The notes: generated by a model not told the origin, from the sequence alone. DNA of 64,000 nucleotides from Diplonema japonicum (GCA_964019335.1 OZ025671.1:558001-622000), one strand, 5' to 3'. Positions 385 through 41,311 are shown, numbered from the stretch's first letter. Numbers and translations: made by a program.

Positions 385-683
385 AATATATGAGTTAAAG
401 GAGGCCGGTGTTGGCGGCGCCCTGCACAAGAACTGTCTACTTGATTACAGGGGGCGCGCCGCGGCCGAGTTGTAGCTTCTTCTGCGTTGCGGTGTACAGC
501 TCAACCCCAGCCGGTGCCCGGGTAACCAAGATTCTGCGCTCGTGCAGTTTGCTGCCTGTTCGTCACCCTGAGCATCTGCATTATGTTCTTCCACTCGGGC
601 GCTACCGGTGATGACCGACGAGGAGGTCAACAGCGAACAACACATCTGATGGTTTTCTTATATTTTCAGTTATCCCCACCACC
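385..683 (-). mobile_element. SINE-like structured repeat, family A, copy 1 (full length, 5' HDV-like ribozyme)
   Basis: Closely matches 8356-8626 (one ~24-nt indel). Its 3' part recurs at 31983-32030 and 41224-41311. Both long copies begin at the same 5' sequence GGTGGTGGGGATAAC; the 3' end is ...CCGGCCTCCTTTAACTCATATATT. No credible coding capacity. Confidence 0.8.
547..683 (-). ncRNA. HDV-like self-cleaving ribozyme (predicted)
   Basis: Minus-strand manual fold: P1 GGTGGTG (683-677)/CATCACC (613-607); P2 GTTCGCTGTTG (638-628)/CAGGCAGCAAAC (558-547); P3 ACC/GGT around L3 TCCTCGTC; GG after P1 available for P1.1; P4 CGCCCGAGT...GCTCAGGGTG; J4/2 ACGAA with catalytic C at 562. Confidence 0.8.
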
Positions 684-1005
684 TTAAAAGAAAGAGAGCA
701 TATAAAAAAAGAAAATAGAACCTGCGCCGTGTTGCTTGTCACTCCGGTCAAAGGCGTAACACCACCACCCCTCCCTCCCTTCCTTCCTTTTTTTCCTTCT
801 TTTCCCGCAACCTCGGCCATACTAACTTCATGCTTTAAGGCACAGAAATAAAGAGGAACCAAATATGCAGAAGTTTTTCTTTCACACCCTTTCTTTTCTA
901 AAAATCCTCCACCTGTCGCAAATATACCAAATTAAGTACCTCATTCAGTGTTATATAATATCACCGGAACAGTAGATGGAATAGATGAACGGGGAAGAGG
1001 AGTAC

Positions 1006-1046
<41 letters not shown>

Positions 1047-1124
1047 TCAAAAAAAGAAGAGAAAACAGAACCTAAAAGAAAAAAAAAAAAGAAAAAAAGA
1101 AAAAAAGAAAAAAAAGAACTTATT

Positions 1125-1403
1125 TCACAACAGTAACTTCATAACGCCATGCGATTGCTTCGATTTCGCAAGGTCGAGGGGGGTTTCCCCTGCTTTGTTC
1201 TTCAGGTATTTGTTACACCCGAAGTCTAGAATCGCCTTTTTTTTTTCTTTTTTTTCCCCCCCTTTTTCTTCTTCTTCTTCTTCCCACACCTTTGCCGCTT
1301 TTGGTCTTTCAAACAACGCAGCCCAATGGAGTGGTGTGTCACCTTCCTCATCCGCAGAGTTGCAGGTTTCCTTCGTAAGCAGTGCCGAGAGGATGCTGGC
1401 CTT

Positions 1404-1446
<43 letters not shown>

Positions 1447-3736
1447 TATTATTATAACCCCTAAACGCCCGCGCGGACGTTTTTGTCCTTATTTCAAAAT
1501 TTGCTTTTTCGCTAAGTACTTTTTTTTTGAACACGGCCCCTGGACTTCAAAATATGGCATTGTTGCGCGGTTTATTTTGTCTTGGAACTACATTTTGCGT
1601 TAAAAGTTTTGTTTTAATTGAAACCGGCAGGGTTGGCTTAAAATGAAATCAGATGGTCAAAATAGCAGCGAAAACGTGAGTCTCCCCCGACTGGTCAGAA
1701 AAAGAAGAAAAAGACGATGAGGCGGTCAAAGAGGGGCCGGAAACGATGCTTGGGTGGGAGAAATACTCCCAAAGCGCCCGAAACATATCATTTCCGTAAA
1801 AAGGTGGGCTTTGGACACCTCTAGGTGAAGCGGCCAATGAGGAGGGTGTTTTTAATCTTTTTTTTTTACACACGCGGTACTTGAGCTCATAGTTTCTTCC
1901 ACGAACGGTCGTTTCGGTTCAAAAAAACAGCACAATAAAAGTCATGGCACCACGAAAAAGCAACTCGGTGGGCATCAAGGTAATCGCTACATGCGACTCA
2001 TAAAACTGTTACCTGGCGAATTTCAACATTTTCAGCAAGAAGTCCACAACACAGGACCTAGTCATGCGTACTGTCGACTCTTAAGGGTTTGCTGTCGACC
2101 CCTGACCGGCAAGACCAGCTCCAGGGGACTGGAGTTCGGCATATGAAAACCCGGAAGTGGACCATGGTCGTTTTTTATTGGGTCCTGGAAAGCTGTGTTG
2201 CCAACTCCTCCATAATCTGGAAGAATAGCAGGGAATGTGGCAAAAATTATGGCTTCCCGAGCTTCGAAGAAGAACTTGTTGGCAAGCTTCTCACCCATGC
2301 CCCAAAAACCGATAGCACACCCCCCCCCCGACAACACCGTCACCGACCCCCAAGCGCAAACACGCTAGCAATGAGGATTCCCTCACTCAGAAATACCCAA
2401 AACGTCTCGATTTGACCCTAAATCACACCTCCGAGACCATGATGAACGGAACGAAGGTGAGGAGGGTGCTCTGTGCTGTTCCTGGGTGCGGGAAGAAGGC
2501 GCAAACGTGGTGCCCCTGTTGCAAAACCCCCTTATGCAAAACGTGTTTTTTACCCTTGCATGCTACCCCAGTTGGAAAAAAAACTCACAAGTTGCTTTTT
2601 TCATCCCACAGCCCCAAAAAGTCTCCAGACTGACCTCAATCCTAGAGTTCAGGGCACCAAATAGGGCTGAATGCTGCCCTTTTTAGCCCAGCCATAACTC
2701 CACGGACCCCCCACGACAAGACCCCCAAAATCGGACATAAAAAGTACACCCTCAACCCCCCTCTTACACACATAGTTAAGTGTTCTCATCTGAATCTGGC
2801 ACCTGGAATTGAAAATTTTAGTACCGTTTACCCTTTCCTTGCACCTTCCTATGGTTGCATGCTGCCCTTTTTTTGAGTATTTAAAGCAACAACGAAAATG
2901 GGGGGGGTACCGTAGATAGGCTCCGGGCGTTTAGTGCAATTTTTTTTTTTTTTCCCACATACTGAGGCTGGTGTTTCTTCTAGACACATGGTGTTGTGTA
3001 TAGGTAAGCACCCCTTGGGGTCGGGTTGGGTGTGAGAGGCACCGTTGTTCAACAAACACAACGCAATTTTGGGTTTTCCATTTTTGAGTGCAAGGTGTAA
3101 TGGGGTGTCCCCATGATCGTCTTCTTCATGGACGGCCTCGGGGCAGCGCGTGAGAATCTTCTTGAGTATGGAAATCCCTTCGGTCGTTTCAAAGGATTCT
3201 TTGTCATCTTCCTCGGAGACCTGGGAGGCGACAGCAACAATTTCAGCGCCTGTGATAGGAGCATTGAGGGAGAGGAGGAGGGACGCGGCTTTAACTCTTC
3301 CAGAAAACATTGCAAGCTGTAGAGCGTGAGGTGCCTCTTGCAATACGGGTTTTGTTGCGAGAAATGAAATAACTGAGAGACCCCTTACTGTGTGGAAAGC
3401 TGGAGCTACAATGGCATGGTGGAGAGGAGAGTCGCCTTCACTGTCAATTATGTTACAAGGGGACCCTTCTTTTATTAGCTTAATGCACATTTCGGGGTTT
3501 TGATCGATGCCAACTGCCACCATCAACCGCATGCCTAGTTCCTGCCTCCGTCCTCGAAGGTCGGCTACCCGAGAGCAATTCCCAGTATCGTCCTTCTCAG
3601 GGAGCACTGCTGGTGTATCCTCTAACTTCACCACAGCAATCGCTTGTGGCCCCGGCGACGAATTCTTCCTTCCATTGTTTTTTGCTTCATTATTATTTAT
3701 AGGTTTTCCCTCTTGTTTGCTCCCACAATCACCCAT
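1125..3736 (-). CDS. Ankyrin-repeat protein, 3 exons (3736-2963, 1400-1290, 1235-1125)
   Basis: Ankyrin motifs GDSPLHHA, GDTPLHLA, GDTPLHWA, GETPLDLA. Phase-0 GT-AG introns 2962-1401 (contains the piggyBac remnant) and 1289-1236 join the exons in frame. N-terminus MGDCG suggests myristoylation/palmitoylation. Confidence 0.8.
1459..2936 (+). mobile_element. Degenerate piggyBac DNA transposon inside ankyrin intron 1
   Basis: TIRs CCCTAAACGCCCG (1459-1471) and CGGGCGTTTAGTG (2924-2936). Broken transposase fragments: GIKVIATCDS*NCYLANFNIF, DQ...KTRKWTMVVFYWVLESCVANSSIIW, and the C-terminal Cys-rich domain CAVPGCGKKAQTWCPCCKTPLCKTCFLPLH. Stops and frameshifts present; TTAA TSDs imperfect. Confidence 0.8.
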
Positions 3737-4685: not shown

Positions 4686-4720
<35 letters not shown>

Positions 4721-4723
<3 letters not shown>

Positions 4724-4762
4724 ACATTTAAGGGTACCTGCGGTATGTGACAGGACGCCTGA
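4721..4762. repeat. Repeat family B, copy 1 (42-nt hairpin motif)
   Basis: GAGACATTTAAGGGTACCTGCGGTATGTGACAGGACGCCTGA; 41/42 identical to 7747-7788, diverged copy at 27397-27441. Confidence 0.8.
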
Positions 4763-6947: not shown

Positions 6948-7746
6948 GTTAGCGGCCACCAGATGCAAAAAATGAAGACGGATGCCGAAAAAGCCCGAAA
7001 ATTGCTCAGAGTAAAAATCAGATTTTACTTTATTTTTACAGCACTTTTTTAAGCCAAATTCGGCCTATTACTTTATTTTTATTCTTCACTTTATTTTTAC
7101 TCGTGAACGATAAAGTGATTTCTGATTTTTATGGCTCTTTAGGAATTTCCTCATGTAACTTTACAGAATTAAATAAAAAAAACAAAACAAAAAAGGTGGA
7201 TGTTTGGGCTGTTTATTGCGAATAATAAGAAAAAAAAAAGTTTGTTCTAGCAGCTTCTTCTTCTCCTTCTTCTTCTTCTTTTTTTTTTTTTTTTTTTTTT
7301 TTTTTTGGCATCAGGGTGAATTCAGAAATTGGGAAGTAGGAAATTAGGAAATAAAGTAAACTGAAGAAGAAAGGGATGGGGGAAAAAAAAAATCCCCCAT
7401 GTATTCCGTAAAGTAGGGGGGGGATTTTTTTTTTTCCTATTTCCTTCAGCAGGTAGTCGTTTGGGTAAATGTGCATTGTGCGAACGAAACGATTCGCAGC
7501 AGAATCGTGTTATAATGTTTAAAAAAAAAAAAGAGTCGGCTGATTGTTTGTGCAGCACAGTCCGGGTCCGCCGGCGCCGTGGGGCCCCCCTCCGGGTATA
7601 GTATAACCGACAACTCCGACGGGTCGATGTCTGCGCAAGCCATTTTCACCTACAGTAGGGATAAACGGACAAGCTGCCTCTACTCTTTTTTGCAATAACA
7701 ATTCTTTTCAAAAATTTGTTTACTTGTTCCAGCAAAAAAAAAAAAA

Positions 7747-7788
7747 GAGACATTTAAGGGTACCTGCGGTATGTGGCAGGACGCCTGA
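7747..7788. repeat. Repeat family B, copy 2
   Basis: 41/42 identical to 4721-4762; CCTGC-GGTATGTG-GCAGG hairpin. Confidence 0.8.
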
Positions 7789-7949: not shown

Positions 7950-8355
7950 CACATTGCCACCCCGATAAATATTTTGCCACAACACAAGGGAAAAGGAGGT
8001 TAATAAAACCATTCTTTCTGTTCGGGGGTTTTCCCTTTTGCTTAAAAATTGGCACCTCCATTTTCTTCTCCCCCCCGTTTAAAAAAAAAAAACATAACTA
8101 ACCAAACACATGGAAGAGAAAAAAAAGAAAACAAAAAAAGTTAGCTTTAAAAGAAAATAGAGAAGACAGTCATATTATACTATTCAAAAAAGAAAAAAAA
8201 ATCATTCTCTTTTCTTCTTCTTTTTTTTTTTTTTTTTTTTTGCTTAAACTAATACTACTTGAATCTATGAAGGTCTTCCCCTTAAAAAAAAGAAAGAAAA
8301 AAGAAGAACTTGACTTTGGTTGCTTATAAACCGCCTGGCGTACAAGCAACTGCAG

Positions 8356-8626
8356 GCACAGTCTACTTGATTACAGGGGGTGCTCCTCGGCCGAGTTGTA
8401 GCTTCTTCTGCGTTCCGCGCTGTGTCCTTAATGCGTGCGGTGTACAACTCAACCCTAGCCGGGGCGCCCCGGGTAACCAAGATTCTGCGCTCGTGCAGTT
8501 TGCTGCCTGTTTGTCACCCTGAGCATCTGCAATACATTCTTCCACTCGGGCGCTACCGGTGATGACCGACGAAGAGGTCAACAGCGAACAACGTACTTCT
8601 TATATTTCCATGTTATCCCCACCACC
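8356..8626 (-). mobile_element. SINE-like repeat family A, copy 2 (5' intact, 3' end divergent)
   Basis: Matches copy 1 from the GGTGGTGGGGATAAC 5' end to ...GTAGAC. Lies about 45 nt downstream of the stop codon at 8672. Confidence 0.8.
8498..8626 (-). ncRNA. HDV-like self-cleaving ribozyme (predicted), second copy
   Basis: Same P1/P2/P3/P4 strands as 547-683. Differences fall in J1/2, the P4 loop, L3 (TCTTCGTC, P1.1 becomes U-G) and the variable base after the catalytic C (ACAAA; C at 8513). Confidence 0.75.
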
Positions 8627-8671: not shown

Positions 8672-11266
8672 TTAGTACGCGTAGGACTCTCGCTGAAGCA
8701 GCGCTGAGGAGTAATTGGGACCACCTACGGGGGATTTTGCCGTAGCGAGCCGTGTGCGTGATTCGTTAAGTGAACTCTTAAGAAGCTCGGAGGTTCGCTG
8801 CATTTCCGTGGCGGTACTTATGTGATTGGTACGTGTTTCCTGAACCTCATTGTCAAGCCGAGTAAGCTGGGACTGAAGCTCTTGAAACCTAAGATGCATA
8901 TCAGATTGTTGTGGGCTGCCTGCATGGCTGTGATGCGGCGCCCCTCCCCGGGGAGTACATCCCTCGTTCATTCGAATTAGTGAGCCCACCGACTCCTGGT
9001 ACGCAGCTAGCTTCACCTGGTACACTTCCCTCTTCTCCGCTAGTGCCTTCAGTCCAGACATCCTGTCTACTATTTTCTCCACAACTGGGTTGCGCTGGCC
9101 CGACTTCTCTAGCACTTCTAGTCGTTTCACTTCTTTCTCCAGTTCTGCGTTGGCTTCTTTTATGGCTTTGTTCTCTTCTTGCAGCTTGCTCACTTCCTTT
9201 AGTCCTCCGTTCACTTCAGCTTCTAGTAGTGACAACCTGCCGGAGGAGCCTTTTAGCTTCCCGCATACAGTTTCCAGTTCTATTTTCAGCCGTCCGCACC
9301 TTTCTGTCTTCCCGCGGAGGATTTCTTTTGTCTCTTCGAATTCCTCTTTCAATATTTGTAGTGCGATCCCGTCCCCTCTGGCTGCGTCCACGGCTGCGCC
9401 GTGCCGCTCGCGCAGTTCTTCCAAATCCTTCTTCCGTGCCGACAGGAGTTTTTTTTGTGTTTGCTCTGAGCTTCGTGCGCTGTTTAGCTCGGTTTTCAGT
9501 TGCTGCACTTCACTCACCAAGGCCTCCTCCTTCACCGTCTTCTGCTGCATCATGTTTTCGAGGACCATCTTAGCCTGCAGCTTTGCCGTCAGGCTGCTCT
9601 TCTCTTGCGACAGCAGCTGTGCCTCTTCCTCCTGGATCTGTAGCTTCCGCGTCAAGTGCTTGATCTCCACCTCCTTTGCGTCGACATCCATCTGCAGGTT
9701 GTTCGTGCGCCCGTTCAGCGCCACCTCCGTGTCAGCGGCCCCATCCTGCACCCGTTTGAGCTCGGCCTCGAGTGCTGTGCACCGCAGGGTTTTGCTGTCT
9801 GTTTCCATCTGCAGTGCTTGCAGGGTGGCTTTCTGTGCAGACACAAGACTCTCCTTCTCTTGTTGAGCCTTTTGTAGGGCCTTTTGAAGAGCAGATTTCG
9901 TGTTCCGGTTCTCGTCCTGACTCTCGACCAGCTCCCCCCGCAGCTGAGTATTCTCCTCCTCCTGCTGTTTCACCTGGAGTCGGCTGCTCTCCAAGTCCTC
10001 CGTCATGGCACTCATTTCTTTTGACTTCTCTGCTGTCGCTTTTTGTAAGCTTGCAAGAGTGCTGGACAGTGTGTCACATTCCTGCTGCAGTGCTGCTATT
10101 GTTTCACTCGTTGTCTTGTGTTTGTTCTCTGCCAATGTTGCCGCGTGGCGGGTGGTAATGGACAGGGCAAGTACCGCCGCTTCCTCCAACTCCGCCATCA
10201 AGGTCGCAGTGTGTTCACTGATGATGTAACTCCTCTGAAGAGACTCGTCGTTGCACAGCGACGCCACTTCGTGTTCTTGCAGAGTATCCTCCAGCTCTCC
10301 TATGCGGAGGGCCATGCTTGTGGCCTCGGCGGCATTATTAAGCGTTTGCCGCTGGCACCACTGCATGTCCTCCTTCTCCCGTTCGAGCATCTCCGATTGG
10401 TGCTTCAACTTGGCCTCCGCTTCTTTCAGCTCTTCCATGGCTAGCACTGCTGTCACTTTGTCTACATGTTTGGACTGTATGGACCCCCGTGCCTCTTCGT
10501 GCAGTGTGCTCGTCAGCTCTTCGTTCTCCTCCCTCAGGCTCTCATTTTCTTGCTTCAGGTTTTCCATCTCCTCTTCTCGTTCCTTGAGCTCTTTGATCAG
10601 CTGCTCCCCCATCCCCACACACGCTAAGACCTCCTCCTCACGCAGTGCAACTAGCTCTTTCATTTCATCAAGGCGCTTTAACTGCTCCAAAATCGATCCC
10701 CCCGACTGCTTCCTGCTCCCAGTTGACGGCGGCTTTTCAAGCAGCTGCGAGGTAGAGTTGCCACCTGTCGAGTTATAACGCTGAACGAGATCCTCACGCA
10801 GCTGCGACCCGAGGTTGGCAAGTGCCTCGCTGAGCTCCTTACGGTTCTTTGCCTGTCCAAGCTTGGTGAGGGGTGTCCGCCTTCCCGCGTTTGGTGCAGA
10901 GAGAGTGCGCATGAGTGGATTGGATGTGTCAGATGACCTGCTGATGAGGTTGGGGAAGGCAGAGGCGCAGAAGGTCATCTTCTCCACAGGGCTCACCGGT
11001 GAGTTGCCCCTGTGTCGACGGGCCGTCTCTTCTACTAGTTGGACATCGATCCCTAGCAGCGAAGGCCGCAGCGCCTCACCAGGCATGGACTGCGTGCTGC
11101 TGGGCACGCTGGTGGTGTCGTCATCGCTGGCAACACTAGCAGCGGGTGCAGGGGGTAGGCTGGAGCCGCTCACGCTGCCACGCCGCCTTGAAAAGCTGGC
11201 GGGGTGCAGTGAGGGCGAGATTCTTATGACGTGCGAATTCGCATCTTCGGCATCAGCTGACTTCAT
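8672..11266 (-). CDS. Long coiled-coil protein (~864 aa)
   Basis: Uninterrupted ORF: Ser/Pro-rich N-terminus, then E/K/Q/L heptad-rich coiled coil. ATG at 11266 follows ACCACAG|GC. Confidence 0.85.
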   Translation of the reverse strand: MKSADAEDANSHVIRISPSLHPASFSRRRGSVSGSSLPPAPAASVASDDDTTSVPSSTQSMPGEALRPSLLGIDVQLVEETARRHRGNSPVSPVEKMTFCASAFPNLISRSSDTSNPLMRTLSAPNAGRRTPLTKLGQAKNRKELSEALANLGSQLREDLVQRYNSTGGNSTSQLLEKPPSTGSRKQSGGSILEQLKRLDEMKELVALREEEVLACVGMGEQLIKELKEREEEMENLKQENESLREENEELTSTLHEEARGSIQSKHVDKVTAVLAMEELKEAEAKLKHQSEMLEREKEDMQWCQRQTLNNAAEATSMALRIGELEDTLQEHEVASLCNDESLQRSYIISEHTATLMAELEEAAVLALSITTRHAATLAENKHKTTSETIAALQQECDTLSSTLASLQKATAEKSKEMSAMTEDLESSRLQVKQQEEENTQLRGELVESQDENRNTKSALQKALQKAQQEKESLVSAQKATLQALQMETDSKTLRCTALEAELKRVQDGAADTEVALNGRTNNLQMDVDAKEVEIKHLTRKLQIQEEEAQLLSQEKSSLTAKLQAKMVLENMMQQKTVKEEALVSEVQQLKTELNSARSSEQTQKKLLSARKKDLEELRERHGAAVDAARGDGIALQILKEEFEETKEILRGKTERCGRLKIELETVCGKLKGSSGRLSLLEAEVNGGLKEVSKLQEENKAIKEANAELEKEVKRLEVLEKSGQRNPVVEKIVDRMSGLKALAEKREVYQVKLAAYQESVGSLIRMNEGCTPRGGAPHHSHAGSPQQSDMHLRFQELQSQLTRLDNEVQETRTNHISTATEMQRTSELLKSSLNESRTRLATAKSPVGGPNYSSALLQRESYAY

Positions 11267-11332
11267 GCCTGTGGTGTGGTGTGCGGCGATCAGAAGAGAA
11301 AACAAAAAGAAAAAGGAGGGGGGGGGAGGTAT

Positions 11333-12481: not shown

Positions 12482-14827
12482 GTGTCCCGGGGTACTGGGT
12501 TGTGTGAATGCAAAAAGAAAGAAAGAAAAAAAGAGAGTGAAAAAAAAAAGAGGAATGGATCAAAAAAAAAAAAAAAAAACCCTCCCACTCCGCCGCTTTT
12601 TCTGCTTTCTTTTTCAGGTTTTGCTTAACAACTCGACTGGGGTGAAGGAAAGAAAGAAAGGAAAGCGAGTATTTTCTTTCTTTTTCTTTCTTCTTTTTCT
12701 TTTCTCTCGCATTCTTAGACATGTCAATGTGCACAAGAAAAAAAAGGGGGGGGGTGTGCAGCACTGACTTTCATCTTTTTTTTTCTTCTTTCCTTCGTCC
12801 AGTTGGTTGTTAAAGCATCCCGTCATTGAGTAAAGGAAGAAGAAAAAACACTGTAGAAAAAAAAAAGGCGGAAGAAAAAAGAAAAAAAAGAAGAAAAGAG
12901 AAACGAGCAAGGAATAAGGCGGGGAATGGAATGAAGACGGAGTCAGTAAGGAAGGAAAAAAAAAAAGTGAAAAAGAAAAGTGAGAGAAACGAATTTTCAA
13001 AAAAAAAAAAAAAGGGAGGGGAAAGAAAAAAGAAAAGAATAATATAACTCGGTGCAATGAAACTTTTGTCGTCCATTGAACGTTGCTGTAGTTGCCCCTT
13101 AGAAGTTTTGCTTCTCCCTTTTTTTTTTTTACTCCCTCTTTTTTATTTTTTGTTTTGCTTAAGCAAATAAATCAGAAAAGAAGAGAAGGATGGGAACAAA
13201 AAAAAGGGGGGGAATCAAACGTTGGCCTTAAGAACCTTTTCCGCACCACGCGGCAAGTTCTAGTTCTTCTTTTCTTTCTCTCCTTTCTTCCCCTTAAAAG
13301 TTGCATTTTTTAGAAGCATAAAAAAAAAAATAATAATAATAAAGGAGTAGTGGTAGCATGCAGTATGTACCCCAGGATCTGAACCGTGTGAACCAACATT
13401 TTGTTGTTGTTTTTTTTTGTGTGGTTTTACCGATCGTCAGGTGAGGAACACAACCTTGCTCCAAAATACAAAAAAAAAAAAAAAAAAGAGGCAGAAGGAA
13501 TGGGGGAGACGATCAATACAGCCACACAACAAGCAACAAGACAATTTACTGTAAGTACTCCAGAGGGAAGAGAATTCACTATGACAGGGAAAACTGTGAG
13601 TGGTAGGTATCGACCGCACGGTTCCTACTTTTTTTCTTCTTCCCCCCCCCCCCCCTCTCGGCGGGACAAAAATTAAAAGGTTTACAGGGTTTAAAAAAAA
13701 AAAAAAAAAACAATTTCCCCACCTTTCCTCTTTTTTTTCGTTTGTTGGTTCTTTTTTTTTTCTTTTTTTTTTTTCCTTGGCTGCTGCCCCTGACGATATA
13801 TTTGTGTTTTTTTTTTTTCTTCATAAAAAAATATAGCACGAAGGGAGGCAATACTAGGGACTTCTAAGCCATTCCCCGTCGTGCGAATGATCTAACATCC
13901 CGTGGTTGATTATAACAAAAAAGAAATGGGGAAGTTAGCACACACGGCTTGAGGAGGGGCCCCCAGTTCCTCTCTTTTTCTTTTTTGCAACAAATCTAAA
14001 AAAGTGCGCACGGCGCATGTTCAAAAATACGCATACGTACGGCCGTACGTGGGCAACGAGCCCTTAGGGGGGGGGGGGGGGGGGGGGGGGTAGTCCCTTT
14101 CGTCACTCTGATATCGAATGAGTTGGGTTCGTTTAAAATAAGAAAACAAGAAAAAGGAGAAAAAAAATAAGTCACACATTATTGTACCGCATTTTGTCTT
14201 TATTGAAAAAAAAGTTTTTTTGTTCCTTCTTTTTATTTTCCCCCCCCCTCTGGGAACAGGGGAAGAAAAAGAAAAACACGACCCGCGACTGGTATAAATA
14301 CCTTCTACCTCACGCACAGATCTCAAGATAACTATTTTTTTTTTTCGAAGGGAAAAATAAAAAAAATAATAAAAAAGGGTGGGGAGGGGGAATAACATAT
14401 AACCAAGAGGTAAATAATAATAATAAAAAAAAAACTTCCACTCGTTTCCTGGTGGGCAAAACATGCCTAACCTTTTTTTTAGGGTTTTTTTTCTTTTTTT
14501 TTTTTCCCTGTGGTCTTGAGAAATAGTAGCTTGCAAAAAAAAAAAAAAAAAAAAAAGAATTTTTTTTTTCCCGCAGGTCTTTTGTTTTGTAAAAGATGAG
14601 CCTGGCTACATCTTGTTTAATTGGGAACGTATGAGGGGGTGACAGCACAACCACCACCCTGTTCTTCAGGAGGGGCACGTGCTCATCAAGGGAGCGCACC
14701 CAGCGAAGGTGAAGAAAAAAGAACATTTAGCGAGATGCCTTCTGTTTGTTGTTTTCAAGGCACGGTAAAAAAAAAAAGAAAAAAAAAAAAAAAACGAGAA
14801 TGAATACCACAAGGGAGAATACCAATA

Positions 14828-14877
<50 letters not shown>

Positions 14878-15428
14878 ACTTGAGCTCTGCTACTTAGATC
14901 CTCATTCTATTATTTTTGACGAAATAACAACATTTTTTCTCTTTTTTTTCCCCCCCCCACTTTCTTCTTCTCCTCCTGAGAAAAGAATGCAAAGCGAGCG
15001 TCAACTTTAAACAAATGGGTATCGTATATAAGCTGAACAAAAAAAAGAGGAAGAGAAAAAAAAAGGACAATTGTATCTCCAGCGAGCTCTCCCCTTTTTT
15101 CTCTCTCTCTCCTTCACAATGTCAAAATAAATACCACTGTGTGTGGGGGAAGGGGATCAAAAAATTTTTTTTCTCCATCCTTCTAGTGACGAAACAAAAC
15201 TTACTAGAAATGCGGGCGCGGTTAGTGAAGATGACAGCAACAAAAAAAAAAAATGGGTAAAGAAAAAAAAAAAAAAAAAAAGAAAAAAAAATCAATTTTC
15301 ACATGCAAACTCCGCGAAAGAGCTGAAGACACTTGTTGGATAGGTGGCCATCAGAAGGTTTTTTCCCACTTTTTTCCCCCCCCTTTCATCATACCTTAAG
15401 CTAGCCAAAATGTTAGGAATGTTGGTCC

Positions 15429-15461
<33 letters not shown>

Positions 15462-16378
15462 AAAAAAAAGAGAAACATGTACTACTGAATGGAATTTATG
15501 TTTCCAATTTTCTTTTGATAGAAAAAAAACTCTCATTTTTTAACTTGAAAAAAAAAAATCCTAAAACCCCAAGGAAGAAAAAAAATTTTTAGGGTTGCAA
15601 GGAATGGTTTCATTTCTATTTCTTTTTTTTTATTTTTGCAAGCACGAGTCTTTGATTTGTCTTGACAAAAGGAAACGTTAACAGAAAGCCACAACCAGCC
15701 TCTTTTCCCTGACACCCACCATCTTCAGTATTTTCTTTTTTTCGTTTTTTTGTTTTCATTTTTTTTTTTTTTTTTTTTTCAATAGGTTATATGTTTTACA
15801 AGTATTGTATTTTTCATGAAGGTTCTTCTTCTTCTTTTTCCTCTTCAAAACACCTAATATTTTAGATTTTCAACACAGTCTCTTGATTTTTTGTCCCAGA
15901 AGGTGTTCAGAAAAAATAATGCACCTCGGTTTCCCTTCAGAAAAAAAAGGGGGGGTGTCCGAAAAAAAAGAAAAAAAAGCTTCTTTTTTTTTTTTGGGGG
16001 GTGTCTCCCTTTTTTTTTTCTTTCGGGGAAAAAATTAAGAGACGTAAAACGAGAAAAAAAAAGAGAAAGTAGAACAGAGATCCCTCCCCCTTTTTTCATT
16101 TCTACTCTTTTTCTCTTTTAATTCTAACTCTAATTGAGATTACGGCCGTCCAGGGTGTTCGAGTAAGGGGTACTAGATGGGGGGGGGTTTTTTTTTCTTC
16201 TAAAATATATATTTTATATATTAACTAATGGATCTTTCTTCTGAATATATTTTCAAGCAACCGCAGACATGGCACTATCGAGTAGCTGGAAGGATACCTA
16301 AATACAAGATTCGTTCTTCAAGATAATTCTCCTCCCTCAACGCCCTCCCCCCCCCCCCCCCCCCCCCCCCCGGCATTG

Positions 16379-16473
16379 AGTGCATCCAAATCAGATCCAA
16401 AAATCAAATCCTGATTTTGCATTTCTGGGGAGAAATTGCCAACAAATTGCCCGAAAACCGGATTGGATGCACT
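16379..16473. repeat. Short inverted-repeat (MITE-like) unit
   Basis: AGTGCATCCAA (16379-89)/TTGGATGCACT (16463-73), 11-bp perfect IR. Confidence 0.4.
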
Positions 16474-18599: not shown

Positions 18600-18634
<35 letters not shown>

Positions 18635-19438: not shown

Positions 19439-19472
<34 letters not shown>

Positions 19473-19532
19473 TTTTTTTTTCCGAATTCCCGTCAGGTGC
19501 CCTCCCTCTTCAACTCAAAACATTTTATAAAA

Positions 19533-20277: not shown

Positions 20278-20429
20278 AAAAAAAATTCAACGAATACAAA
20301 AGGAACAAAAGAAAAAAAAAAGGGGGGAGGGAGGGGGGATCATCACTCAACCTCTCAATGGAGAAGGCAATGACACATGTATAACAAAGGTTCTATTATT
20401 TCTTTTTTTTTTCTTTTTCTTTTTCCTCT

Positions 20430-21899: not shown

Positions 21900-21959
21900 G
21901 CGTATCCTTAAAGGGCTAGCCGTGGGCAGGCATCAATAAATAACTGGAAACCACTTCTA

Positions 21960-26719: not shown

Positions 26720-27289
26720 TTACACTTTGCTGTGTTTTTTCTCTAACATTACAACCTGAAGGTTTGTGGGGTTTTTTTCTTCCCCCCCCTTTTTTTTTAT
26801 AAATACCACTTTATCCAACTCCTTCACTGCTTTGTACACTTCATTCACATCGATGCAAAGCATTGACATCTGCTCGAGTTGCACGTCCAGGAAGTTGACG
26901 TTCTTTACCTTTTTTTTTTTTTTTTAATTTCTTTTTTTTTTTTGTATAAATACCACCGCGTCCATCTCGGTAACGGTTTCATTCAGTGCTGTGGTGAAGT
27001 GCGTGACCGCCTCGTTGTGTACTTCCAAATGTTTCACTTGTGCTTGCATTTGTCGCTTTGATTTCAGCTGCAAGTCCCCTATTATGTGTGCGAAGGCGAC
27101 CCCCATCTTCTGCGACCTCTTCTGCACTGTTTCCAACATGCGGGCAGCGTTTTCTCGCACGGCCATCATGCTGACCTCCTCCCCCGGGGTCAGTGAATCG
27201 GATAAACTCCCATTATCTACGAAAGATAGAGCCCGCAAACTGTCCTTGTCGCAGTCACGCTCACTACCGGGTGGTGTCACAAAAGACAT
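26720..27289 (-). CDS. BORCS6/BLOC-1-related small coiled-coil protein, 3 exons (27289-26954, 26908-26807, 26755-26720)
   Basis: Phase-0 GT-AG introns of 45 and 51 nt join the exons in frame. The helical pattern resembles the BORCS6 C-terminal domain (by eye only). Confidence 0.55.
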
Positions 27290-27396
27290 CTTTCCCTTTC
27301 CCCCCTTTTTTATTTGATCGCAGCAGGAAGAAAAAAAGGAACACACAAAAAAAAGATTTTGCAGGTATTACAGGTAGTTTTTTTAAGTAAAAAAAA

Positions 27397-27690
27397 GAGG
27401 TGTCTTTGAGGGAACCTGCAAGTATGTGACAGGATCGCCTAACGACAGTCAACTCATCTTGTGTTTGATGCCTTCTGTCGTGGTAGTGCCTCAGGGCCCG
27501 TCGGCAGCTTGGGCGTGAAATCTACTAGCGAGTTGTTGAGGATGCAATGAGTTCGCAGTTGCTCCTCTAGGATCGGGTGGGTTGCCTTCGGGGAACGCAA
27601 AGACAGGACGAGCGGAGTACCCAATGGTGGAATGGCTTGGAGCCCTAGGGTAGTGAGTGCACTGACTTCTTAGTTCTGTAGGTCCCCAGG
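27397..27690. repeat. Repeat family B, long structured copy
   Basis: Begins with a diverged family-B motif, followed by ~250 nt of GC-rich non-coding sequence with several hairpins (ACGACAG/CTGTCGT, GCCCG/TGGGC, GAGGA-GCAA/TTGC-TCCTC, C-TTCG-G loop). Confidence 0.5.
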
Positions 27691-27848: not shown

Positions 27849-29853
27849 TCAGAGTCCAGATTTTCGAATGGCGGTGGCAATCTCAGGGATGACAGTAGGA
27901 TCCTAATATGTTTCTATTTTCTCCCCCTCACCCTCAACACACCTCAATAGTACTTGGCATATCGTATTTTTCCTTGTTGAGCATCTTTCTTATAGTGACG
28001 CGAAGGACCTTCCCAGAGCGTGTTTTAGGGAGGCGTGACAAGGGGATGGCCGCACGGAGCCTGGCGAAGCCTCCGACGTTATCGGTGATGAGCTTATTGA
28101 TCTCTGCGAAGTGGGTAGTGGAAGATGGTGTCCCGGACTTCACAACGTAGAAGGCGACAGGGACGACACCTTTGAAGTCATCGTGAAGGCCGACAACGAC
28201 ACCCTCAGCGATGGCAGGGTGCAAGGACAGAGATTCTTCAAGCATCCCTGTCGACAGCCGTATGGCACCCACGTTCATGATGTCATCCGTCCTCGACATG
28301 ATGAAGACGTGCCCGTTGTCGTCCAGGTAGCCCGCATCCCCCGACAGGTAGTACTCGTTGTTCCCTGTCAAGTACTTCTCCGCGTACTGCTGTTGCGTCT
28401 TCCCCCACAAACTGTTCAGCATCCCCGGTGGCAGTGGCTGTTGTTGTGTGTTTAAAAGGGGGGAAGGGGGGACGCATACCCGCTTTATCAGAATGTCCCC
28501 CATCTCTGTTCCAGATGGGATCTCCTCATTTGTCTTCAGGTCCATCACCTTGATATTCCACCCAGGCACGGGCAGCCCCGCCCCGGGTGAATGTTCGTAC
28601 TCTGAAAGCCCCACACAAGGGGATGTGATGGGCCATCCTGACTCTGTCTGCCACCAGTGGTCGTACACGGGAAGCCTTGTCAGATTCTGTGCCCAATCCA
28701 GCGTGTCCGTGTCCGTGCGCTCTCCCGCGAGGAACAGGTACTTCAGCGAGGACAGGTCGTACGGCTTCATGAGCTCGCCGTTGGGGTCGTCCCGCTTCAG
28801 GGCACGGATGCCGGTCGGTGCTGCGAACATAGAGTTCACCTTGTGGTCCTCGATGACACGCCAGTAGGCAGAGGCGTCGGGTGTGCCCACAGGCTTCCCC
28901 TCGTACACCACTGACTGGCACCCTGCCAGTAGCGGGCCGTACACGATGTACGAGTGCCCCACTACCCAGCCGATGTCCGAAGCTGCAAACATGACCTCCT
29001 TCTCGTCCAAACCGTAGACAGCCTTCATGGACCACTTCAGGACAGTGGCATAACCGCCTATGTCCCGCACAACACCTTTGGGCTGCCCAGTGGTGCCGCT
29101 TGTGAACATGATGTACAGGGGGTGCGTGGAGGGCAGCATGACAGGGTCCGCCTGCTCGGGGGACGTGCCAAGGGCGTCGTAGAAGTCTATGTCTCTGCCA
29201 GGTTGCAGGTCACAGAATAGCTCGGGGCGTCTGACCACCACACACGGTATGGGGGTTGCAAGGTTGCACTTCTCAAGCGCAGAGTCGAGCAGCACTTTGT
29301 AGTCGACGATCTTACCCATGGCAGGCACACCGCAGGAGGAGGCCACAATCAACTTTGGCTTTGCATCAATGATGCGTTTTGCCAGTTCGTTAGGAGCGAA
29401 GCCTCCAAAGCACACAACATGGATGGCACCTACGCGAGCACAGGCCAGCATGGTGCACACCGCCTCCAAGGTCTGCGCCATGTAGACGAGAACAGTGTCG
29501 CCAGGCTGCACTCCCCGCTTGATGAGCATGCCAGCGATGTTGTTGACCATCTTCAGGACCTCGTTGTATGTCATAACCACATGCTTCCCTGGGCTGCTCA
29601 CGGGGCTGTCGTATCTAAAGGCAGGGCTGTCTCCCAGGCCCTTCTCCACATTCACATCCACAGCGTTGTAGCACATGTTCAGCTTCCCGTCGGTGAACCA
29701 TAGGTCCGCCTTCTCATCTTGCCGCAGTGTCTGCTTCGGCACTTTGTCCCACACCAGCTTCGCCCCCTGCTCCTCCCAGAACCCCGCAGGGTCCCTCAGT
29801 GACGCGCTCAACGCCTCCCTGTGAGACCCCCACAGCACTGTGCACCGCTTCAT
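27849..29853 (-). CDS. Propionyl/acetyl-CoA synthetase (ACSS3/PrpE-type), 3 exons
   Basis: YIMFTSGTTGQPKG, SDIGWVVGHSY, DHWWQTESG, LPKTRSGKVLR. Introns 28479-28438 (restores IKRPLPPG) and 27942-27903 (restores STIEDPTV). Confidence 0.92.
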
Positions 29854-29941
29854 TGTGTACCCCCCCCACCTAGTAGGCTTCGCGTTGCACGCTTGCGAGT
29901 AAACCAACACTTGTAATCTAAGCCGAATCTATGGAATCTAA

Positions 29942-31783: not shown

Positions 31784-31982
31784 CTTGCGGTCCTAACGGG
31801 TGTTGCACAGAGGGAAGACGAAACGAAGGAGTGAAGCGGATAAAATAATTAATAGCAGGCGTACAAAAAGAAAAAAAAAGATCCGGGTGAAAGGGGAAAA
31901 GAGGGAAATTAATGACTAAAACAAAGAAGAAAAGCTTTTTTTGGGGGGGGGTATTCAAGAGAAGAGGAAAAAAAAAAAGAAT

Positions 31983-32030
31983 AATATGAAGGAGGCCGGT
32001 GGTTGGCGGCGCCCTGCACAAGAACTGTCT
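31983..32030 (-). repeat. Family A 3'-terminal fragment (copy 3)
   Basis: AAGGAGGCCGGTGGTTGGCGGCGCCCTGCACAAGAACTGTCT matches ~398-438 of copy 1. Confidence 0.85.
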
Positions 32031-32149
32031 CTTGAAAGAAATGTTTTACCTTTTTTCTTGTGTGCGGGTTGTGTGTAGGAAAAAAAAAAGAAAAAAAAAA
32101 CCCTTTTTTTTTTGTGTAAATGGAACTTTCAAAAAAAAAAAAAAAAAAA

Positions 32150-37515: not shown

Positions 37516-39672
37516 TTAGAGCTTTGCACCGGCCGATTGGCATGTTTGCTCCCAACAGCGAACCCCATCCACGTATGTGGCCAACGGGTCCAACGTGGTG
37601 GGGTCGAGGAGGACAAAATCAGCATCAGCGCCAAAACCAAGATGTCCCTTCCTGTGAGTGTGTGCGTGTGTGTATTGTGTTTTCACATACGTTCTGTGAA
37701 CAGCCAGGGCCTTCGCAGGGTTCCATGTCGCAGTGACGAGTGCATCTGCCGTTGAGCACCCAGTAAACTTGATGAGGTTCCTCACACAATCGATCAGCGT
37801 GGGGACGGCCCCTGCCAGCGTGTCCGTTCCTGTTAGCGTGGCCTTGTTGGCCGTACCACCACCGTAAGCTGCAGGCAGCTGTGTGGCAACAACATCTACC
37901 TCTTTTCCTGCAAGCTTGTACTTTCCTGGTGGCATGCCCATAGCCTCCATGGCGTCGGTCACAAGCACACACCCCTCAGGATGCGCGCGGTACGCGATCC
38001 TGACCGAAGCAGGGTGCGTGTGCAGCCCATCGACGATGATCCCGTAGTACGGCTTCTCCTTCAGGTTCGACCCAAGCACGCCGACAAGTCCTGGGTCACG
38101 GTGCTTGAACGACCTCATCGCATTGAAGAGGTGTGTCACCAGGTTGCTGCCTGCCGTGACACCCGCCTCTGCTTCTGAGAGCGTGGCATTGCTGTGCCCG
38201 AGAGACACCTTGATGCCACGTGCCGTGAGGTCTTTGATGGCGGCCAGCGAGCCTTCGAGCTCGGGTGCCAATGTAACTAGGGCCACTGCGTCCATGCGCC
38301 CATACATGTTTACGACATCTTTGAAGCCGTTGTTGGGCGACCTTACTAGGTTCTTGTCGTGCGCACCGTACTTGAGCTCCGACAGGAAGGGGCCTTCCAG
38401 GTGTGCACCTAACATGTTCGCTCCGCTCGCGAGGCCGCCCTTCTGCGGCAGCAACAACGGGAGAGTCTTCCTGTACACCTCCGGTGCAGAGGTGATGACG
38501 GTAGGGCAGTACGAAGTGCAGCCGTGGGAAAGGATGCCCTTCGATACCGTCACGACGCTCTCCGCCGTGAGGGCGGGGTCTGTGAAGTCGATCCCGAAGG
38601 CACCATTCAACTGGATGTCGATGAAGCCCGGCGAGCAGACTGCACCCTTCCCGTCGACGATGGTCTCTGCCGCATATTCGCTAACCTCTCTTGCCTCCCA
38701 GAAGCGTTGGGCAGGGTTGATAACACGCCCGTTGCGCACCCACAGGTCGTCGCTGACAAGGTCCTTGCCACGCAGCAACTTGATATTTATGACTTTAAGA
38801 ACACCGGAGCCAGGGGAGCAGGGTGGGGTGAGGACGAGACGGGGGAGGGTCGTGGTGTCGAGGTCGTCGTTGTGGAGGGAGTTCCCCTCAAGGGAGCGGT
38901 AGTAGCTGTAGGCGGACTTGGACATCTCCTGGCACGCAGCCTCATCGGCGATGACAGTGCTGTTCTTGTGGTACTGGAAGGCCGTGAAACCAGAGCGGTG
39001 CGAAACGGTGCGATAAGTGAGGGCACTGAGGGCGTCGCATGCTTCGGGGGATGTGGCAATAGTAAGAAGCTCCCTGGTGTTGAGAATAGTGGCGATGCCT
39101 ATCGTGAGACCACGCACAGGGACATGCTCTGGACCACCGAAGGAAGGGGCGTAGAGAATACGGGTGCTGTTCGAAAGCGTCTTTGTGCGTGTCGTTCCCA
39201 CGAGGGAGGAACCTGGCTCGTTGAATCCAAGGTGGCCTGCTGTGTCAGGTGAGACCAGAGCTAGATCGATACCACCCACAGATGCCATAGATTCTTCAAA
39301 AGACGCACACTCCGCTGCTAGGTCCGCTGTGTTCCCATTCAAGGTGTGCACATTCTGAGGCTTGATGTCAATGTGTTTGAAGATCCCTTCCCACGAGACT
39401 GCATGTATAGAGGATGGGTGGGCTTCGTCCAAGTCGCAGAATTCGTGCGTTAGGTAAATAGCTACGTTTTCGAAGCTGACTAATCGTTGCTTGTGGTACT
39501 CAACCAGCACCTTGCACACCTGCATCACCCGGGCCGTGCCGCCAAGCATCAGCACGAAATCCTTTTTCGTCTTTTCTTCATTCTTCTCGAAGTCCAAGAT
39601 CCTTTTCAAGATTATCTTCGCTGTAAACTCGTCCGCTGACTCACAATCTTCTTTGATAAAAACACGTGGCAT
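37516..39672 (-). CDS. Fusion of a GlcN6P deaminase-like (NagB/GNPDA) domain and GlcNAc6P deacetylase (NagA/AMDHD2)
   Basis: N-half: GHLGFNEPGSSL..TRTKTL, LTIGIATIL. C-half: PGFIDIQLNG, HLEGPF, GAH, GHSNA, THLFNAM, DGLH, VTDAM. One continuous frame; 39-nt intron 37690-37652 restores TKGHLGFGADAD. Confidence 0.9.
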   Translation of the reverse strand: MPRVFIKEDCESADEFTAKIILKRILDFEKNEEKTKKDFVLMLGGTARVMQVCKVLVEYHKQRLVSFENVAIYLTHEFCDLDEAHPSSIHAVSWEGIFKHIDIKPQNVHTLNGNTADLAAECASFEESMASVGGIDLALVSPDTAGHLGFNEPGSSLVGTTRTKTLSNSTRILYAPSFGGPEHVPVRGLTIGIATILNTRELLTIATSPEACDALSALTYRTVSHRSGFTAFQYHKNSTVIADEAACQEMSKSAYSYYRSLEGNSLHNDDLDTTTLPRLVLTPPCSPGSGVLKVINIKLLRGKDLVSDDLWVRNGRVINPAQRFWEAREVSEYAAETIVDGKGAVCSPGFIDIQLNGAFGIDFTDPALTAESVVTVSKGILSHGCTSYCPTVITSAPEVYRKTLPLLLPQKGGLASGANMLGAHLEGPFLSELKYGAHDKNLVRSPNNGFKDVVNMYGRMDAVALVTLAPELEGSLAAIKDLTARGIKVSLGHSNATLSEAEAGVTAGSNLVTHLFNAMRSFKHRDPGLVGVLGSNLKEKPYYGIIVDGLHTHPASVRIAYRAHPEGCVLVTDAMEAMGMPPGKYKLAGKEVDVVATQLPAAYGGGTANKATLTGTDTLAGAVPTLIDCVRNLIKFTGCSTADALVTATWNPAKALAVHRTYVKTQYTHAHTHRKGHLGFGADADFVLLDPTTLDPLATYVDGVRCWEQTCQSAGAKL

Positions 39673-40269
39673 TTTTTTCCCCCCCCCTTCCTTTTTTTTC
39701 CCCCTTTACTTTCGTTCTCTCCCTTTGTTCACCCCTCTTTTTTTTCTCTTTGCTTTTGTAAAAAGAAAGAAGAAAGAAAAGAAAAATGGTCTCGGAAAAA
39801 TGGATGAAGAAAAAAAAATGGGGCATTGGTGGGTGGAATAGAGTAAAAAAAAAAAAGAAGAAGAAGAAGGGGAGGGGCGAAGAAGATGGAATAAAATATA
39901 AGAAAAGAGGGGGGGTGAGCCAAACCAACACCAGAAAAGGGGAGGAGGGGTGGAGTAGTTGGATGAGGTCCATCAGTCTTCTCTATTTTCTTCAATTTAT
40001 GCAAAAAAAGAAGAAAAAAGCGAAGAAGAGGGAGGTGTTGAAGATAACAGTGGTAAGTGCTGAAAAAAAAGGGGGGGGGGAGGGTGAAAATGCGTGTACA
40101 AGTAAAAGAGAAAGAAAAAACAACTGAATGAAATGGCACAAATGGGCAGTCTTTTAGCTATCCCCCCCCCCCCCCCCCGTCCTCCTTCCCCTCATCCTTC
40201 CTTCCTTAATTCCCAGTAGGGCTCTAGAAGTAGACTTGTGGGGGCTTATAACACATGAAGGGTACCTTC

Positions 40270-40317
<48 letters not shown>

Positions 40318-41223
40318 TTTCTATTCTTTTTTTTTTTAATTGTGTGTTGGGTAGGGTTAATGCACACTTTGCATTATATAAGAAAGGGTATACAGAAAAG
40401 AAGGAAAAAAAACCCACGGAAGAAAAAAAAAAATTCCTCCCTTCTCTCAAATATAGTTTGTCGAGCGGCTAGGGGGGGGCCGAGGAGAGAGAGGAAAAGG
40501 GGGGAAAGAGTAAGAAGATTCTAAGATGGGCTAGAAAGAAACCGTATTTATATGTGTTTTGCGATGAAAGAGAAAAGTTAAAAAAACAAAGGAGGGGGGG
40601 AGGTGGAAAAAAAAAGTAATAAATTAAGCCCTTTTCCTTCCCCTTGGCATGGTTGCTCTGACATGGCAATTAGGATATTTTCCACAGTGGGCAGTGCTAG
40701 GTGACAACCCACCAAAATATAAACTTAACTGCCTCTTTTTTTTTTTTTTTTTTTTTCTTCCCACCTTTTTCTTTCTTTCTTTCCTTTTTCTTCTTCCTTT
40801 TTTTTTTCTCCTCCATTTTCGTCACCTTCCCCCCGAACGAAAAAAAAAAAGAAAAAAAAATTACTATGTGGGAACGATGTGGTTAGCAACGGCCCAAAAA
40901 GAAAAAAAGAAAAGAAAACAATAAGTAGAATTGCTTCAGAGTCAGAGAAAAAAAAGTATGAGTGGGCTAGTTCCGACCATCTCGTGCTCCGGTGCACTGA
41001 GTGTCTCTATCTTTTTTTTCTTCTTTTTTCTTTTTCCTTTAAACATCATTTTCCCCTAAATCTCAAATATACTATTCTCTCTCTCTCTTTTTTTTTTCCT
41101 GTAAAAATAAACTAGAAAAAAGAACAAATAAAAAAATCCCTCCCTCTATGTCATGGAATCAATATTATACCAAAACAAAAAAAAAAAAAAAAAAAAAGAA
41201 AGAAAGAAAGAATGAAAGAAAAA

Positions 41224-41311
41224 AATATATGAGATAAAAGGAAGCCAGTGTTGGTGGCGCCCTGCACAAGCACTGTCTACTAAACAGGGGGCGCACCTCG
41301 GCCAAACTGCA
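41224..41311 (-). repeat. Family A 3'-terminal fragment (copy 4, diverged)
   Basis: AATATATGAGATAAAAGGAAGCCAGTGTTGGTGGCGCCCTGCACAAGCACTGTCTAC...GGCC aligns to ~385-474 of copy 1. Confidence 0.8.

What the first reader, a model, noticed from the sequence alone, without database searches (positions are those of the whole stretch)
385..41311. All four family A copies sit in sense orientation just downstream of stop codons (SIDER-like 3'UTR system?)
Seen: the copies lie about 440 nt (ankyrin), 45 nt (coiled-coil), 120 nt (PPPDE) and 280 nt (PTEN-like) downstream of stop codons, all on the gene strand. Two retain the ribozyme and two are 3'-end fragments, the pattern of 5'-truncated retrocopies. 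Known: Leishmania SIDER retroposons were domesticated in 3'UTRs as regulators of mRNA decay. Inference: in polycistronic transcripts a sense ribozyme would release the element RNA and cut the host pre-mRNA, so the family could be a promoterless parasite or a post-transcriptional control module. Four copies is a small sample, and in a unidirectional cluster any spacer is downstream of some gene.
Basis: partly seen in the sequence, partly recalled or inferred. Interest (0 to 1): 0.8.

Follow-up and report, generated by a model that had tools for sequence, protein, structure and literature searches.

The report
Ribozyme-headed jumping element of a diplonemid
The four repeats belong to an abundant, young 300-base element of a marine diplonemid that starts with a predicted self-cutting RNA and is likely a jumping parasite that frees itself from host transcripts; at least one copy is read as part of a gene's tail, but nothing here shows that the host uses it as a switch.

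Summary
Observation confirmed: four minus-strand copies lie 441, 45, 114 and 284 nt past stop codons, on the gene strand. The host is a diplonemid with cis-introns, not a trypanosomatid. Both full copies begin exactly at the predicted cleavage site of a complete HDV-like fold (0 of 5000 element shuffles give one). Public contigs show a very abundant family, probably thousands of copies, with T-runs at both ends, no poly(A) tail and at least four hairpin 3' tails. One tail reveals three more sense copies in the window (7 of 7 sense) at 410-1264 nt, which weakens the 'just after the stop' pattern (p 0.015 to 0.03-0.13). A run that looks like RNA reads uncut through copy 1's cleavage site, so that copy lies in the gene's 3' transcript. 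Best reading: a non-autonomous, ribozyme-headed retroposon (works like NARTc or R2 SIDEs) whose T-run targets explain part of the strand bias. It is not a SIDER: it is young and has no A-tail or 77-79-nt head. Regulation and cleavage are untested; no partner LINE was found. The scan has noted ribozyme-headed retroposons in other genomes, not this family.

The parts
385..683 (-). Copy 1, full length (about 300 nt), tail type 1; 441 nt past the ankyrin stop
   Evidence: RNA-like contig 625-991 without differences
551..683 (-). Predicted HDV-like ribozyme of copy 1: P1 677-683 with 607-613; hairpin in J1/2 634-676; P2 628-634 with 551-558; P3 625-627 with 614-616; L3 617-624; GG of P1.1 605-606; P4 563-604; putative catalytic C at 562; predicted cut between 684 and 683
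   Evidence: descriptor scan; local folds; helix names and roles from established HDV knowledge (recalled); cleavage not tested
431..550 (-). Middle part of copy 1, long stem-loop, shared with copy 2 (which has a 22-nt longer loop)
385..430 (-). 3' tail type 1: two stacked stems with a C/A-rich loop, then T-rich DNA; copy 4 changes both sides of one stem pair
8305..8626 (-). Copy 2, full length, 45 nt past the stop of the 864-aa ORF; ribozyme 8502-8626 with two non-consensus core bases (8573, 8512); tail type 2 (8305-8360)
31975..32035 (-). Copy 3, 3' fragment, tail type 1, 114 nt past the PPPDE stop in a 366-nt spacer
41223..41309 (-). Copy 4, 3' fragment, tail type 1, 284 nt past the stop of the PTEN-like ORF
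7740..7787 (-).
   Evidence: loose end at 416 joins this tail to the family
4715..4761 (-). Extra 3' fragment (tail type 4) between T-runs, 1264 nt past the nearest stop
27391..27440 (-). Degenerate 3' fragment (tail type 4), about 410 nt past the acyl-CoA synthetase stop
   Evidence: nhmmer E 1e-4; fold
1125..3736 (-). Ankyrin-repeat gene with cis-introns, upstream of copy 1
8672..11266 (-). 864-aa ORF upstream of copy 2; an RNA-like contig runs from an AG 3 nt before its ATG to 28 nt inside copy 2

Best explanation
This is an abundant, young family of short non-coding elements in a diplonemid, likely a non-autonomous retroposon, whose predicted HDV-like ribozyme likely cuts it out of host polycistronic transcripts and which is likely copied into T-runs by a LINE not yet found. 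Steps: (1) shown: copies sit on the gene strand in spacers and at least copy 1 is read through in RNA; (2) inferred: the 5' fold cleaves just before its first G and frees a roughly 300-nt RNA, so no promoter is needed; (3) inferred: a LINE reverse transcriptase binds the 3' hairpin tail, and swapping tails gave at least four subfamilies; (4) inferred: target-primed insertion at T-runs, often incomplete, leaves 3' fragments between T-runs; (5) inferred: T-runs are commoner on the gene strand, and only sense copies can be freed and found new copies, so the family leans sense. Any effect on host mRNA is a by-product, probably small because cleavage in the 3' transcript is slow or partial.
For: All HDV-like helices in canonical order in copies 1 and 2 and nowhere else in the window; 1 hit in 60 window shuffles, 0 of 5000 element shuffles. 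Homology of the two copies starts at the first base of P1; a loose end in run X11 shows the same start after a T-run. Differences between the copies fall in the J1/2 and P4 loops, one L3 base and one J4/2 purine; P1, P2, P3 and the P4 stem are identical. X1 laid 12,165 contigs on the 751-nt stretch; summed depth 2.6-6.2 million in most element bins against about 830-860 in unique flank bins. 5 of 7 copies are 3' fragments. T-rich flanks: 11-16 of 20 nt upstream in 5 of 7 copies, 11-20 of 20 downstream in 7 of 7, and in loose ends of X1, X7, X11, X13. T-runs are 62-66% on the gene strand for runs of 8 or more. No tRNA, Pol III box or Pfam-matching frame in the element. Same design shown for L1Tc/NARTc (PMC3185411, PMC4035085) and R2 or R2/R1 SIDEs (PMC3414825 abstract).
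Against: Cleavage was not assayed; the core pattern of the descriptor was written after I had read the fold by eye, so the shuffle figures are optimistic. No Rfam HDV-like model matches. A nested-only fold favours competing pairings for the P1 3' strand. Uncut read-through RNA exists at copy 1. No target-site duplication could be told from the T-runs, there is no poly(A) tail, and no partner LINE was found (no genome). The ribozyme half is at least as deep as the tail half in X1, so 5' truncation does not dominate by that crude measure. T-run targeting leaves 7 of 7 sense at P 0.035-0.055 and does not explain closeness to stops.
Confidence: 0.68

Rival explanations
1. Domesticated 3'UTR control module: sense copies are kept near stop codons because the ribozyme or a bound protein sets mRNA half-life, as SIDER2 does in Leishmania.
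For: 7 of 7 sense; the four family A copies are closer to stops than uniform placement gives (P 0.015); copy 1 is read through in RNA and copy 2 probably; D. papillatum has unidirectional clusters, SL trans-splicing and 3'UTRs of median 800 nt (PMC10161547, passages).
Against: Copies are young and many; 5 of 7 lack the ribozyme; the added copies are not close to stops (P 0.40 alone); 39% of spacer DNA here lies within 800 nt of a stop, so 3'UTR residence is cheap; no conservation of any one insertion across species was shown; no expression data bear on it.
Confidence: 0.13
2. Same parasite, but the sense bias is made by selection: antisense copies in a 3'UTR pair with abundant element RNA and silence the gene, so they are lost.
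For: 7 of 7 sense exceeds the T-run share (P 0.035-0.055); element sequence is very deep in the RNA-like run X7 (up to about 900,000 summed against 42.5 in the flank); the D. papillatum paper discusses an RNAi machinery (passage).
Against: Seven copies only; summed contig depth is a poor measure; no strand information in contigs; no small-RNA data.
Confidence: 0.1
3. Non-autonomous rolling-circle element (Helitron or Helentron-associated type) with a constant 5' end, captured 3' hairpins and T-run targets; the HDV-like fold is then a passenger or a coincidence.
For: T-run flanks, no clear target-site duplication, no poly(A), terminal hairpins and exchangeable 3' ends; Helitron ORFs are reported in D. 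papillatum (PMC10161547, passage).
Against: The 5' boundary coincides with the predicted cleavage site; fragments keep the 3' end; pairing between head and tail is no better than in shuffles (P 0.13-0.74), so no subterminal inverted repeat is evident. Helitron features are recalled, not tested against a model.
Confidence: 0.09

Closest known systems
NARTc / RIME, non-autonomous partners of L1Tc / ingi (trypanosomes)
   Same: Short, no ORF, HDV-like ribozyme at the very 5' end, host with unidirectional clusters; release from polycistronic RNA was proposed for them (PMC3185411, passages).
   Different: Their head is the 77-79-nt Pr77 hallmark with +1 C and promoter activity and they end in poly(A) (PMC4035085, PMC12278014, passages). 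Here the predicted ribozyme is 133 nt, starts with G, has a hairpin in J1/2, and the element ends in a hairpin and T-run.
Leishmania SIDER1 / SIDER2
   Same: High copy, in spacers and 3' transcripts of directional clusters, T-rich DNA upstream (18-bp T-rich motif in PMC2323293).
   Different: SIDERs are extinct (12-40% from consensus), 450-790 bp, carry the 79-bp signature and an A-rich tail; SIDER2 decay is tied to proteins and translation (PMC5509151). This family is young, 300 nt, and no regulatory role is shown.
R2 SIDE and R2/R1 hybrid SIDE (Drosophila)
   Same: HDV-like ribozyme head joined to a LINE 3' end; one head with tails of different origin (PMC3414825, abstract).
   Different: Those are rare and confined to 28S rDNA sites; this family is dispersed in gene spacers and abundant, and its LINE is unknown.
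EhSINE1 of Entamoeba histolytica
   Same: Non-autonomous retroposon with T-rich flanks on both sides that hide short target-site duplications (PMC2996970, passages).
   Different: 500-600 bp, presumed internal promoter; I saw no ribozyme in the passages read.

Membership tests
HDV-like ribozyme | Nested double pseudoknot: P1 (7 bp), P2, P3 (3 bp), P1.1, P4 in order | tested here: met
   Descriptor hits only copies 1 and 2; 0 of 5000 element shuffles, 1 hit in 60 window shuffles. Pattern written after seeing the sequence.
HDV-like ribozyme | Conserved L3 and J4/2 bases with the catalytic C | tested here: met
   L3 and C-R-A present; the C is changed in 11.5% of X1 depth and 0.4% of X7 depth. 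Roles of the bases are recalled.
HDV-like ribozyme | Match to an Rfam HDV-like covariance model | tested here: not met
   No such family among 103 and 7 weak hits; long J1/2 and P4 inserts may be the cause.
HDV-like ribozyme | Self-cleavage 5' of the first base | not testable with these tools
   Needs an in vitro assay; uncut RNA is seen at copy 1.
SIDER (L1Tc/ingi clade) | 77-79-nt Pr77 signature at the 5' end | tested here: inconclusive
   No direct alignment to Pr77 was made. Length (133 nt) and first base (G, against C1 in PMC4035085) differ.
SIDER (L1Tc/ingi clade) | Adenosine-rich 3' tail | tested here: not met
   Downstream flanks hold 11-20 T and 0-1 A of 20 in 6 of 7 copies, 11 T and 7 A in the seventh; loose ends agree.
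SIDER (L1Tc/ingi clade) | Extinct and degenerate (12% or more from consensus) | tested here: not met
   Copies 1 and 2 differ at 16 of 243 aligned bases; 7,758 of 12,165 X1 contigs are 95% or more alike to copy 1 (short contigs inflate this).
SIDER (L1Tc/ingi clade) | Almost all copies in 3'UTRs of directional clusters | tested here: inconclusive
   7 of 7 sense in one window; read-through shown for 1 copy, probable for a second; no genome.
SIDER (L1Tc/ingi clade) | Lowers mRNA stability | not testable with these tools
   No reporter or half-life data.
Non-autonomous non-LTR retroposon (SIDE type) | No coding frame, dispersed high copy, 5'-truncated copies sharing the 3' end | tested here: met
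   5 of 7 window copies are 3' fragments.
Non-autonomous non-LTR retroposon (SIDE type) | Target-site duplications | tested here: inconclusive
   Only T-run matches between flanks.
Non-autonomous non-LTR retroposon (SIDE type) | Ends shared with an autonomous LINE | not testable with these tools
   No reverse transcriptase among 77 spacer frames scanned; no genome held.
tRNA/7SL/5S-derived SINE | Pol III head with A and B boxes | tested here: not met
   No tRNA, no Rfam match at gathering score, no A or B box by a recalled consensus.

The most novel reading that the evidence does not exclude
A young retroposon has seeded thousands of self-cleaving ribozymes on the sense strand of diplonemid 3'UTRs, and the ribozyme itself, tuned by each copy's sequence and flank, sets mRNA half-life genome-wide: a ribozyme-run counterpart of SIDER2 caught during domestication, in a lineage thought to lack gene-by-gene transcriptional control.
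Probability: 0.12. Interest if true: 0.8.

Novelty: new variant of a known kind. Interest (0 to 1): 0.42.

Why it matters
It would extend ribozyme-headed parasites of polycistronic transcription from trypanosomatids to their free-living sister group, with a different ribozyme and T-run instead of poly(A) ends, which points to an independent origin of the same trick. My searches found no report of an HDV-like ribozyme in diplonemids. Because the family is young and abundant and cultured material with DNA and RNA runs exists, it makes the question of how SIDER-like regulation begins testable: full copies, core-mutant copies and ribozyme-less fragments all sit behind genes as natural controls.

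Tried and rejected
No whole genome is held, so the genome-wide map was not made. No run is on record as RNA; the RNA nature of X7 is my inference. Runs X4 and X5 show no cover of the unique gene although listed as holders; a filter may drop records, so nothing is drawn from it. X13 has no cover at 718-795, so presence or absence of copy 1 in that relative is open. X11 holds element pieces without flanks; not interpreted. Exact 30-nt core pattern in metagenome contigs: 0. Relaxed pattern: 120 loci, of which 1 reached E below 0.01 with the family profile (L087, E 4e-4, 41 nt) and 4 reached E below 1; treated as chance. Viral contigs: 0. Rfam: no match at gathering score. Whole-element folding energy is no better than shuffles (z -0.52). 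Head-to-tail pairing as an attenuator or inverted repeat: not above shuffles. Target-site duplications: not separable from T-runs. Pol III or tRNA origin: rejected. Earlier scan notes by sequence and by diplonemid words: none. The LINE-like element noted elsewhere in this genome targets another repeat and was not tested as partner. Supplements of PMC10161547: 7 files searched, no occurrence of the four terms; figures and any file not held were not seen; bioRxiv supplements are closed.

Full report
Host and setting. The window is eukaryotic, with every long ORF taken as a gene on the minus strand. A HEAT-repeat phosphatase subunit has its best named relative in Diplonema papillatum (62%), then a Sulcionema-labelled protein (53%), with trypanosomatids at 41-45%, so the host is a diplonemid. 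It has cis-introns: the ankyrin gene ends in two small exons, the last stopping at 1125. D. papillatum is described with unidirectional clusters, SL trans-splicing, inferred polycistronic processing and 3'UTRs of median 800 nt (PMC10161547, passages; directon lengths in bioRxiv 2026.07.29.740908, passages). No genome is held for this window.

Observation. Four copies exist, all on the gene strand, 441, 45, 114 and 284 nt past stop codons. Copies 1 and 2 are full length, 3 and 4 are 3' fragments. Copy 2 leaves the alignment near 8360 and has its own tail.

The 5' end. Copies 1 and 2 carry P1, P2, P3, L3, the GG of P1.1, P4, a C-R-A linker and the P2 partner in HDV order. A descriptor finds these two sites and no other on either strand; 60 block-wise shuffles of the window gave 1 hit in all and 5000 shuffles of the element none. 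I wrote the descriptor after reading the fold by eye, so these figures are optimistic. The long J1/2 folds as its own hairpin and P4 has a long loop, which may be why no Rfam HDV-like model matches. Homology between the copies begins at the first base of P1 (683 and 8626), the predicted cleavage site. The copies differ at 16 of 243 aligned bases; within the ribozyme the changes lie in the J1/2 region, the P4 loop, one L3 base and one J4/2 purine, and none in P1, P2, P3 or the P4 stem. Nested-only folding shows competing partners for the P1 3' strand, so cleavage may be slow. It was not assayed.

The family in public runs. Ten runs of organism A from three studies hold the stretch; I laid 4 of them, plus 2 runs of other organisms. 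In X1, which covers spacer and genes in one 3,361-nt contig and behaves as DNA, single-copy depth is 540-860 and summed depth over most of the element 1.5-6.2 million. The tool warns that this is no copy number, and short overlapping contigs inflate it; together with 7 copies in 64 kb it points to thousands of copies. Loose ends show T-runs on the element strand at the 5' end (X1, X7, X11), at truncation points (X13 at 425) and at the 3' end (X1, X13), and no poly(A) tail. They also show at least four 3' tails: type 1 (copies 1, 3, 4), type 2 (copy 2, shared with other contigs), a third absent from the window and a fourth that branches at 416 (25 contigs, agreement 0.64). The fourth matches three more window sites, 7740-7787, 4715-4761 and 27391-27440. 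Tails 1 and 4 align and fold alike, two stacked stems with a C/A-rich loop before T-rich DNA, and copy 4 changes both sides of one pair. Run X13 (organism D) holds the ankyrin 3' flank at about 93% and the family with other diagnostic variants, so a close relative shares it.

RNA. No run is labelled RNA. X7 behaves as RNA: two contigs start at AG dinucleotides 3 and 14 nt before ATGs with 18-20 unaligned letters, as SL trans-splicing would give, and adjacent genes 66 nt apart lie on separate contigs. In X7 a 367-nt contig with no difference spans 625-991, 59 nt inside copy 1 and 308 outside. So RNA passes uncut through the predicted site, and copy 1 is in the ankyrin gene's 3' transcript or its precursor. 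A 2,689-nt contig runs from the splice acceptor of the 864-aa gene to 28 nt inside copy 2, just short of the tool's 31-letter rule for bridging. At 13 C-to-T or G-to-A sites, mostly CpG, the variant share has a median of 12.6% in X1, 0.33% in X7 and 0.41% in X13 (these are sites I picked from a table cut to the best supported rows); X4 and X5 lie between (about 2-9%). This hints that element RNA comes mostly from consensus-like copies rather than evenly from all 3'UTRs, but contig building drops rare variants, so it is a hint only.

Strand and position. T-runs of 8 or more are on the gene strand in 62-66% of cases. Four of four sense then has P 0.15-0.19 and seven of seven 0.035-0.055, against 0.06 and 0.008 at even odds. 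Target choice thus explains part of the bias, perhaps not all. Against uniform placement in 25.9 kb of spacer, the four copies are close to stops (P 0.015), the three added ones are not (P 0.40), all seven give 0.033, and 0.13 without the 7.9-kb spacer that may hide a gene. T-rich sites are barely enriched near stops, so the weak positional signal is left unexplained. 39% of spacer DNA lies within 800 nt of a stop.

Mechanism. Most likely a non-autonomous retroposon that needs no promoter: transcribed with the host cluster, freed by its 5' ribozyme, bound at its 3' hairpin by a LINE enzyme and inserted at T-runs (0.68). Read-through, abundance, ends and flanks are shown; cleavage, the LINE and the insertion chemistry are inferred. 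Rivals are domesticated 3'UTR control (0.13), selection against antisense copies (0.10) and a rolling-circle element (0.09). No reverse transcriptase lies in 77 spacer frames scanned.

Comparison. It works like NARTc/RIME with L1Tc/ingi (PMC3185411, passages; PMC4035085, first part, section 9 and passages) and like R2 and R2/R1 SIDEs, where one ribozyme head joins different LINE tails (PMC3414825, abstract); a review lists such elements in many animals (PMC6765202, passages). It is not a SIDER: no A-rich tail, not degenerate, a longer head starting with G (PMC2323293, passages and section 9; PMC12278014, passages). T-rich flanks on both sides recall EhSINE1 (PMC2996970, passages). Searches for 'diplonem' with 'ribozyme' (11 papers, 10 listed, none on this by title or abstract start; one checked by passages, PMC12621601), 'HDV-like ribozyme' with 'Euglenozoa' (0) and the D. 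papillatum text and 7 supplements (0) found no earlier report; the library lacks most subscription papers. The scan has 89 notes on ribozyme-headed retroposons in at least 12 other genomes and none on this sequence.

Verdict. A real, ordinary-in-kind but undescribed ribozyme-headed element; new variant of a known kind; interest 0.42. The SIDER-like regulatory reading stays open at about 0.12-0.13.

Noticed in passing
window 1440-2950: A 1.5-kb insert in an ankyrin intron holds, on the plus strand, a Cys-rich frame (2316-2630; weak B-box zinc-finger hits, E 1e-4) that by eye resembles the end of a piggyBac-type transposase (recalled); likely a decayed DNA transposon, antisense to the gene.
   Followed up: partly
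window 19554-19661 and 20000-20138: A 108-nt imperfect palindrome and a 56-nt direct repeat within a low-homopolymer block at about 19500-20300, probably another non-autonomous element.
   Followed up: no
window 37516-39672 (-): Fusion of a glucosamine-6-phosphate deaminase-like domain and an amidohydrolase (probably N-acetylglucosamine-6-phosphate deacetylase) in one 718-aa frame, with an apparent small intron near 37650-37690.
   Followed up: no
window 1237-1290, 26800-26950, 27905-27942, 28440-28480: Very short GT-AG introns (about 40-55 nt) whose 3' tract is purine-rich or A-rich rather than pyrimidine-rich; read by eye.
   Followed up: partly
window 11267-11332, 21900-21907, 29854-29941: Very short spacers between same-strand ORFs (66, 8 and 88 nt); for the 66-nt one, run X7 has separate contigs and an SL-like start for each gene.
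   Followed up: partly
window 41594-43003 (-): PTEN/auxilin-like ORF with only weak hits (best E 0.024) and no evident CX5R motif by eye; possibly a pseudophosphatase.
   Followed up: partly
window 12482-20429: A 7.9-kb stretch with no Pfam-matching frame and no family copy; may hold an unannotated multi-exon gene (exon-like text near 14600-14730).
   Followed up: partly
window 54514-63964 (-): Dynein heavy chain split over three frames (breaks near 59180-59045 and 55107-54924), by introns or assembly errors.
   Followed up: no
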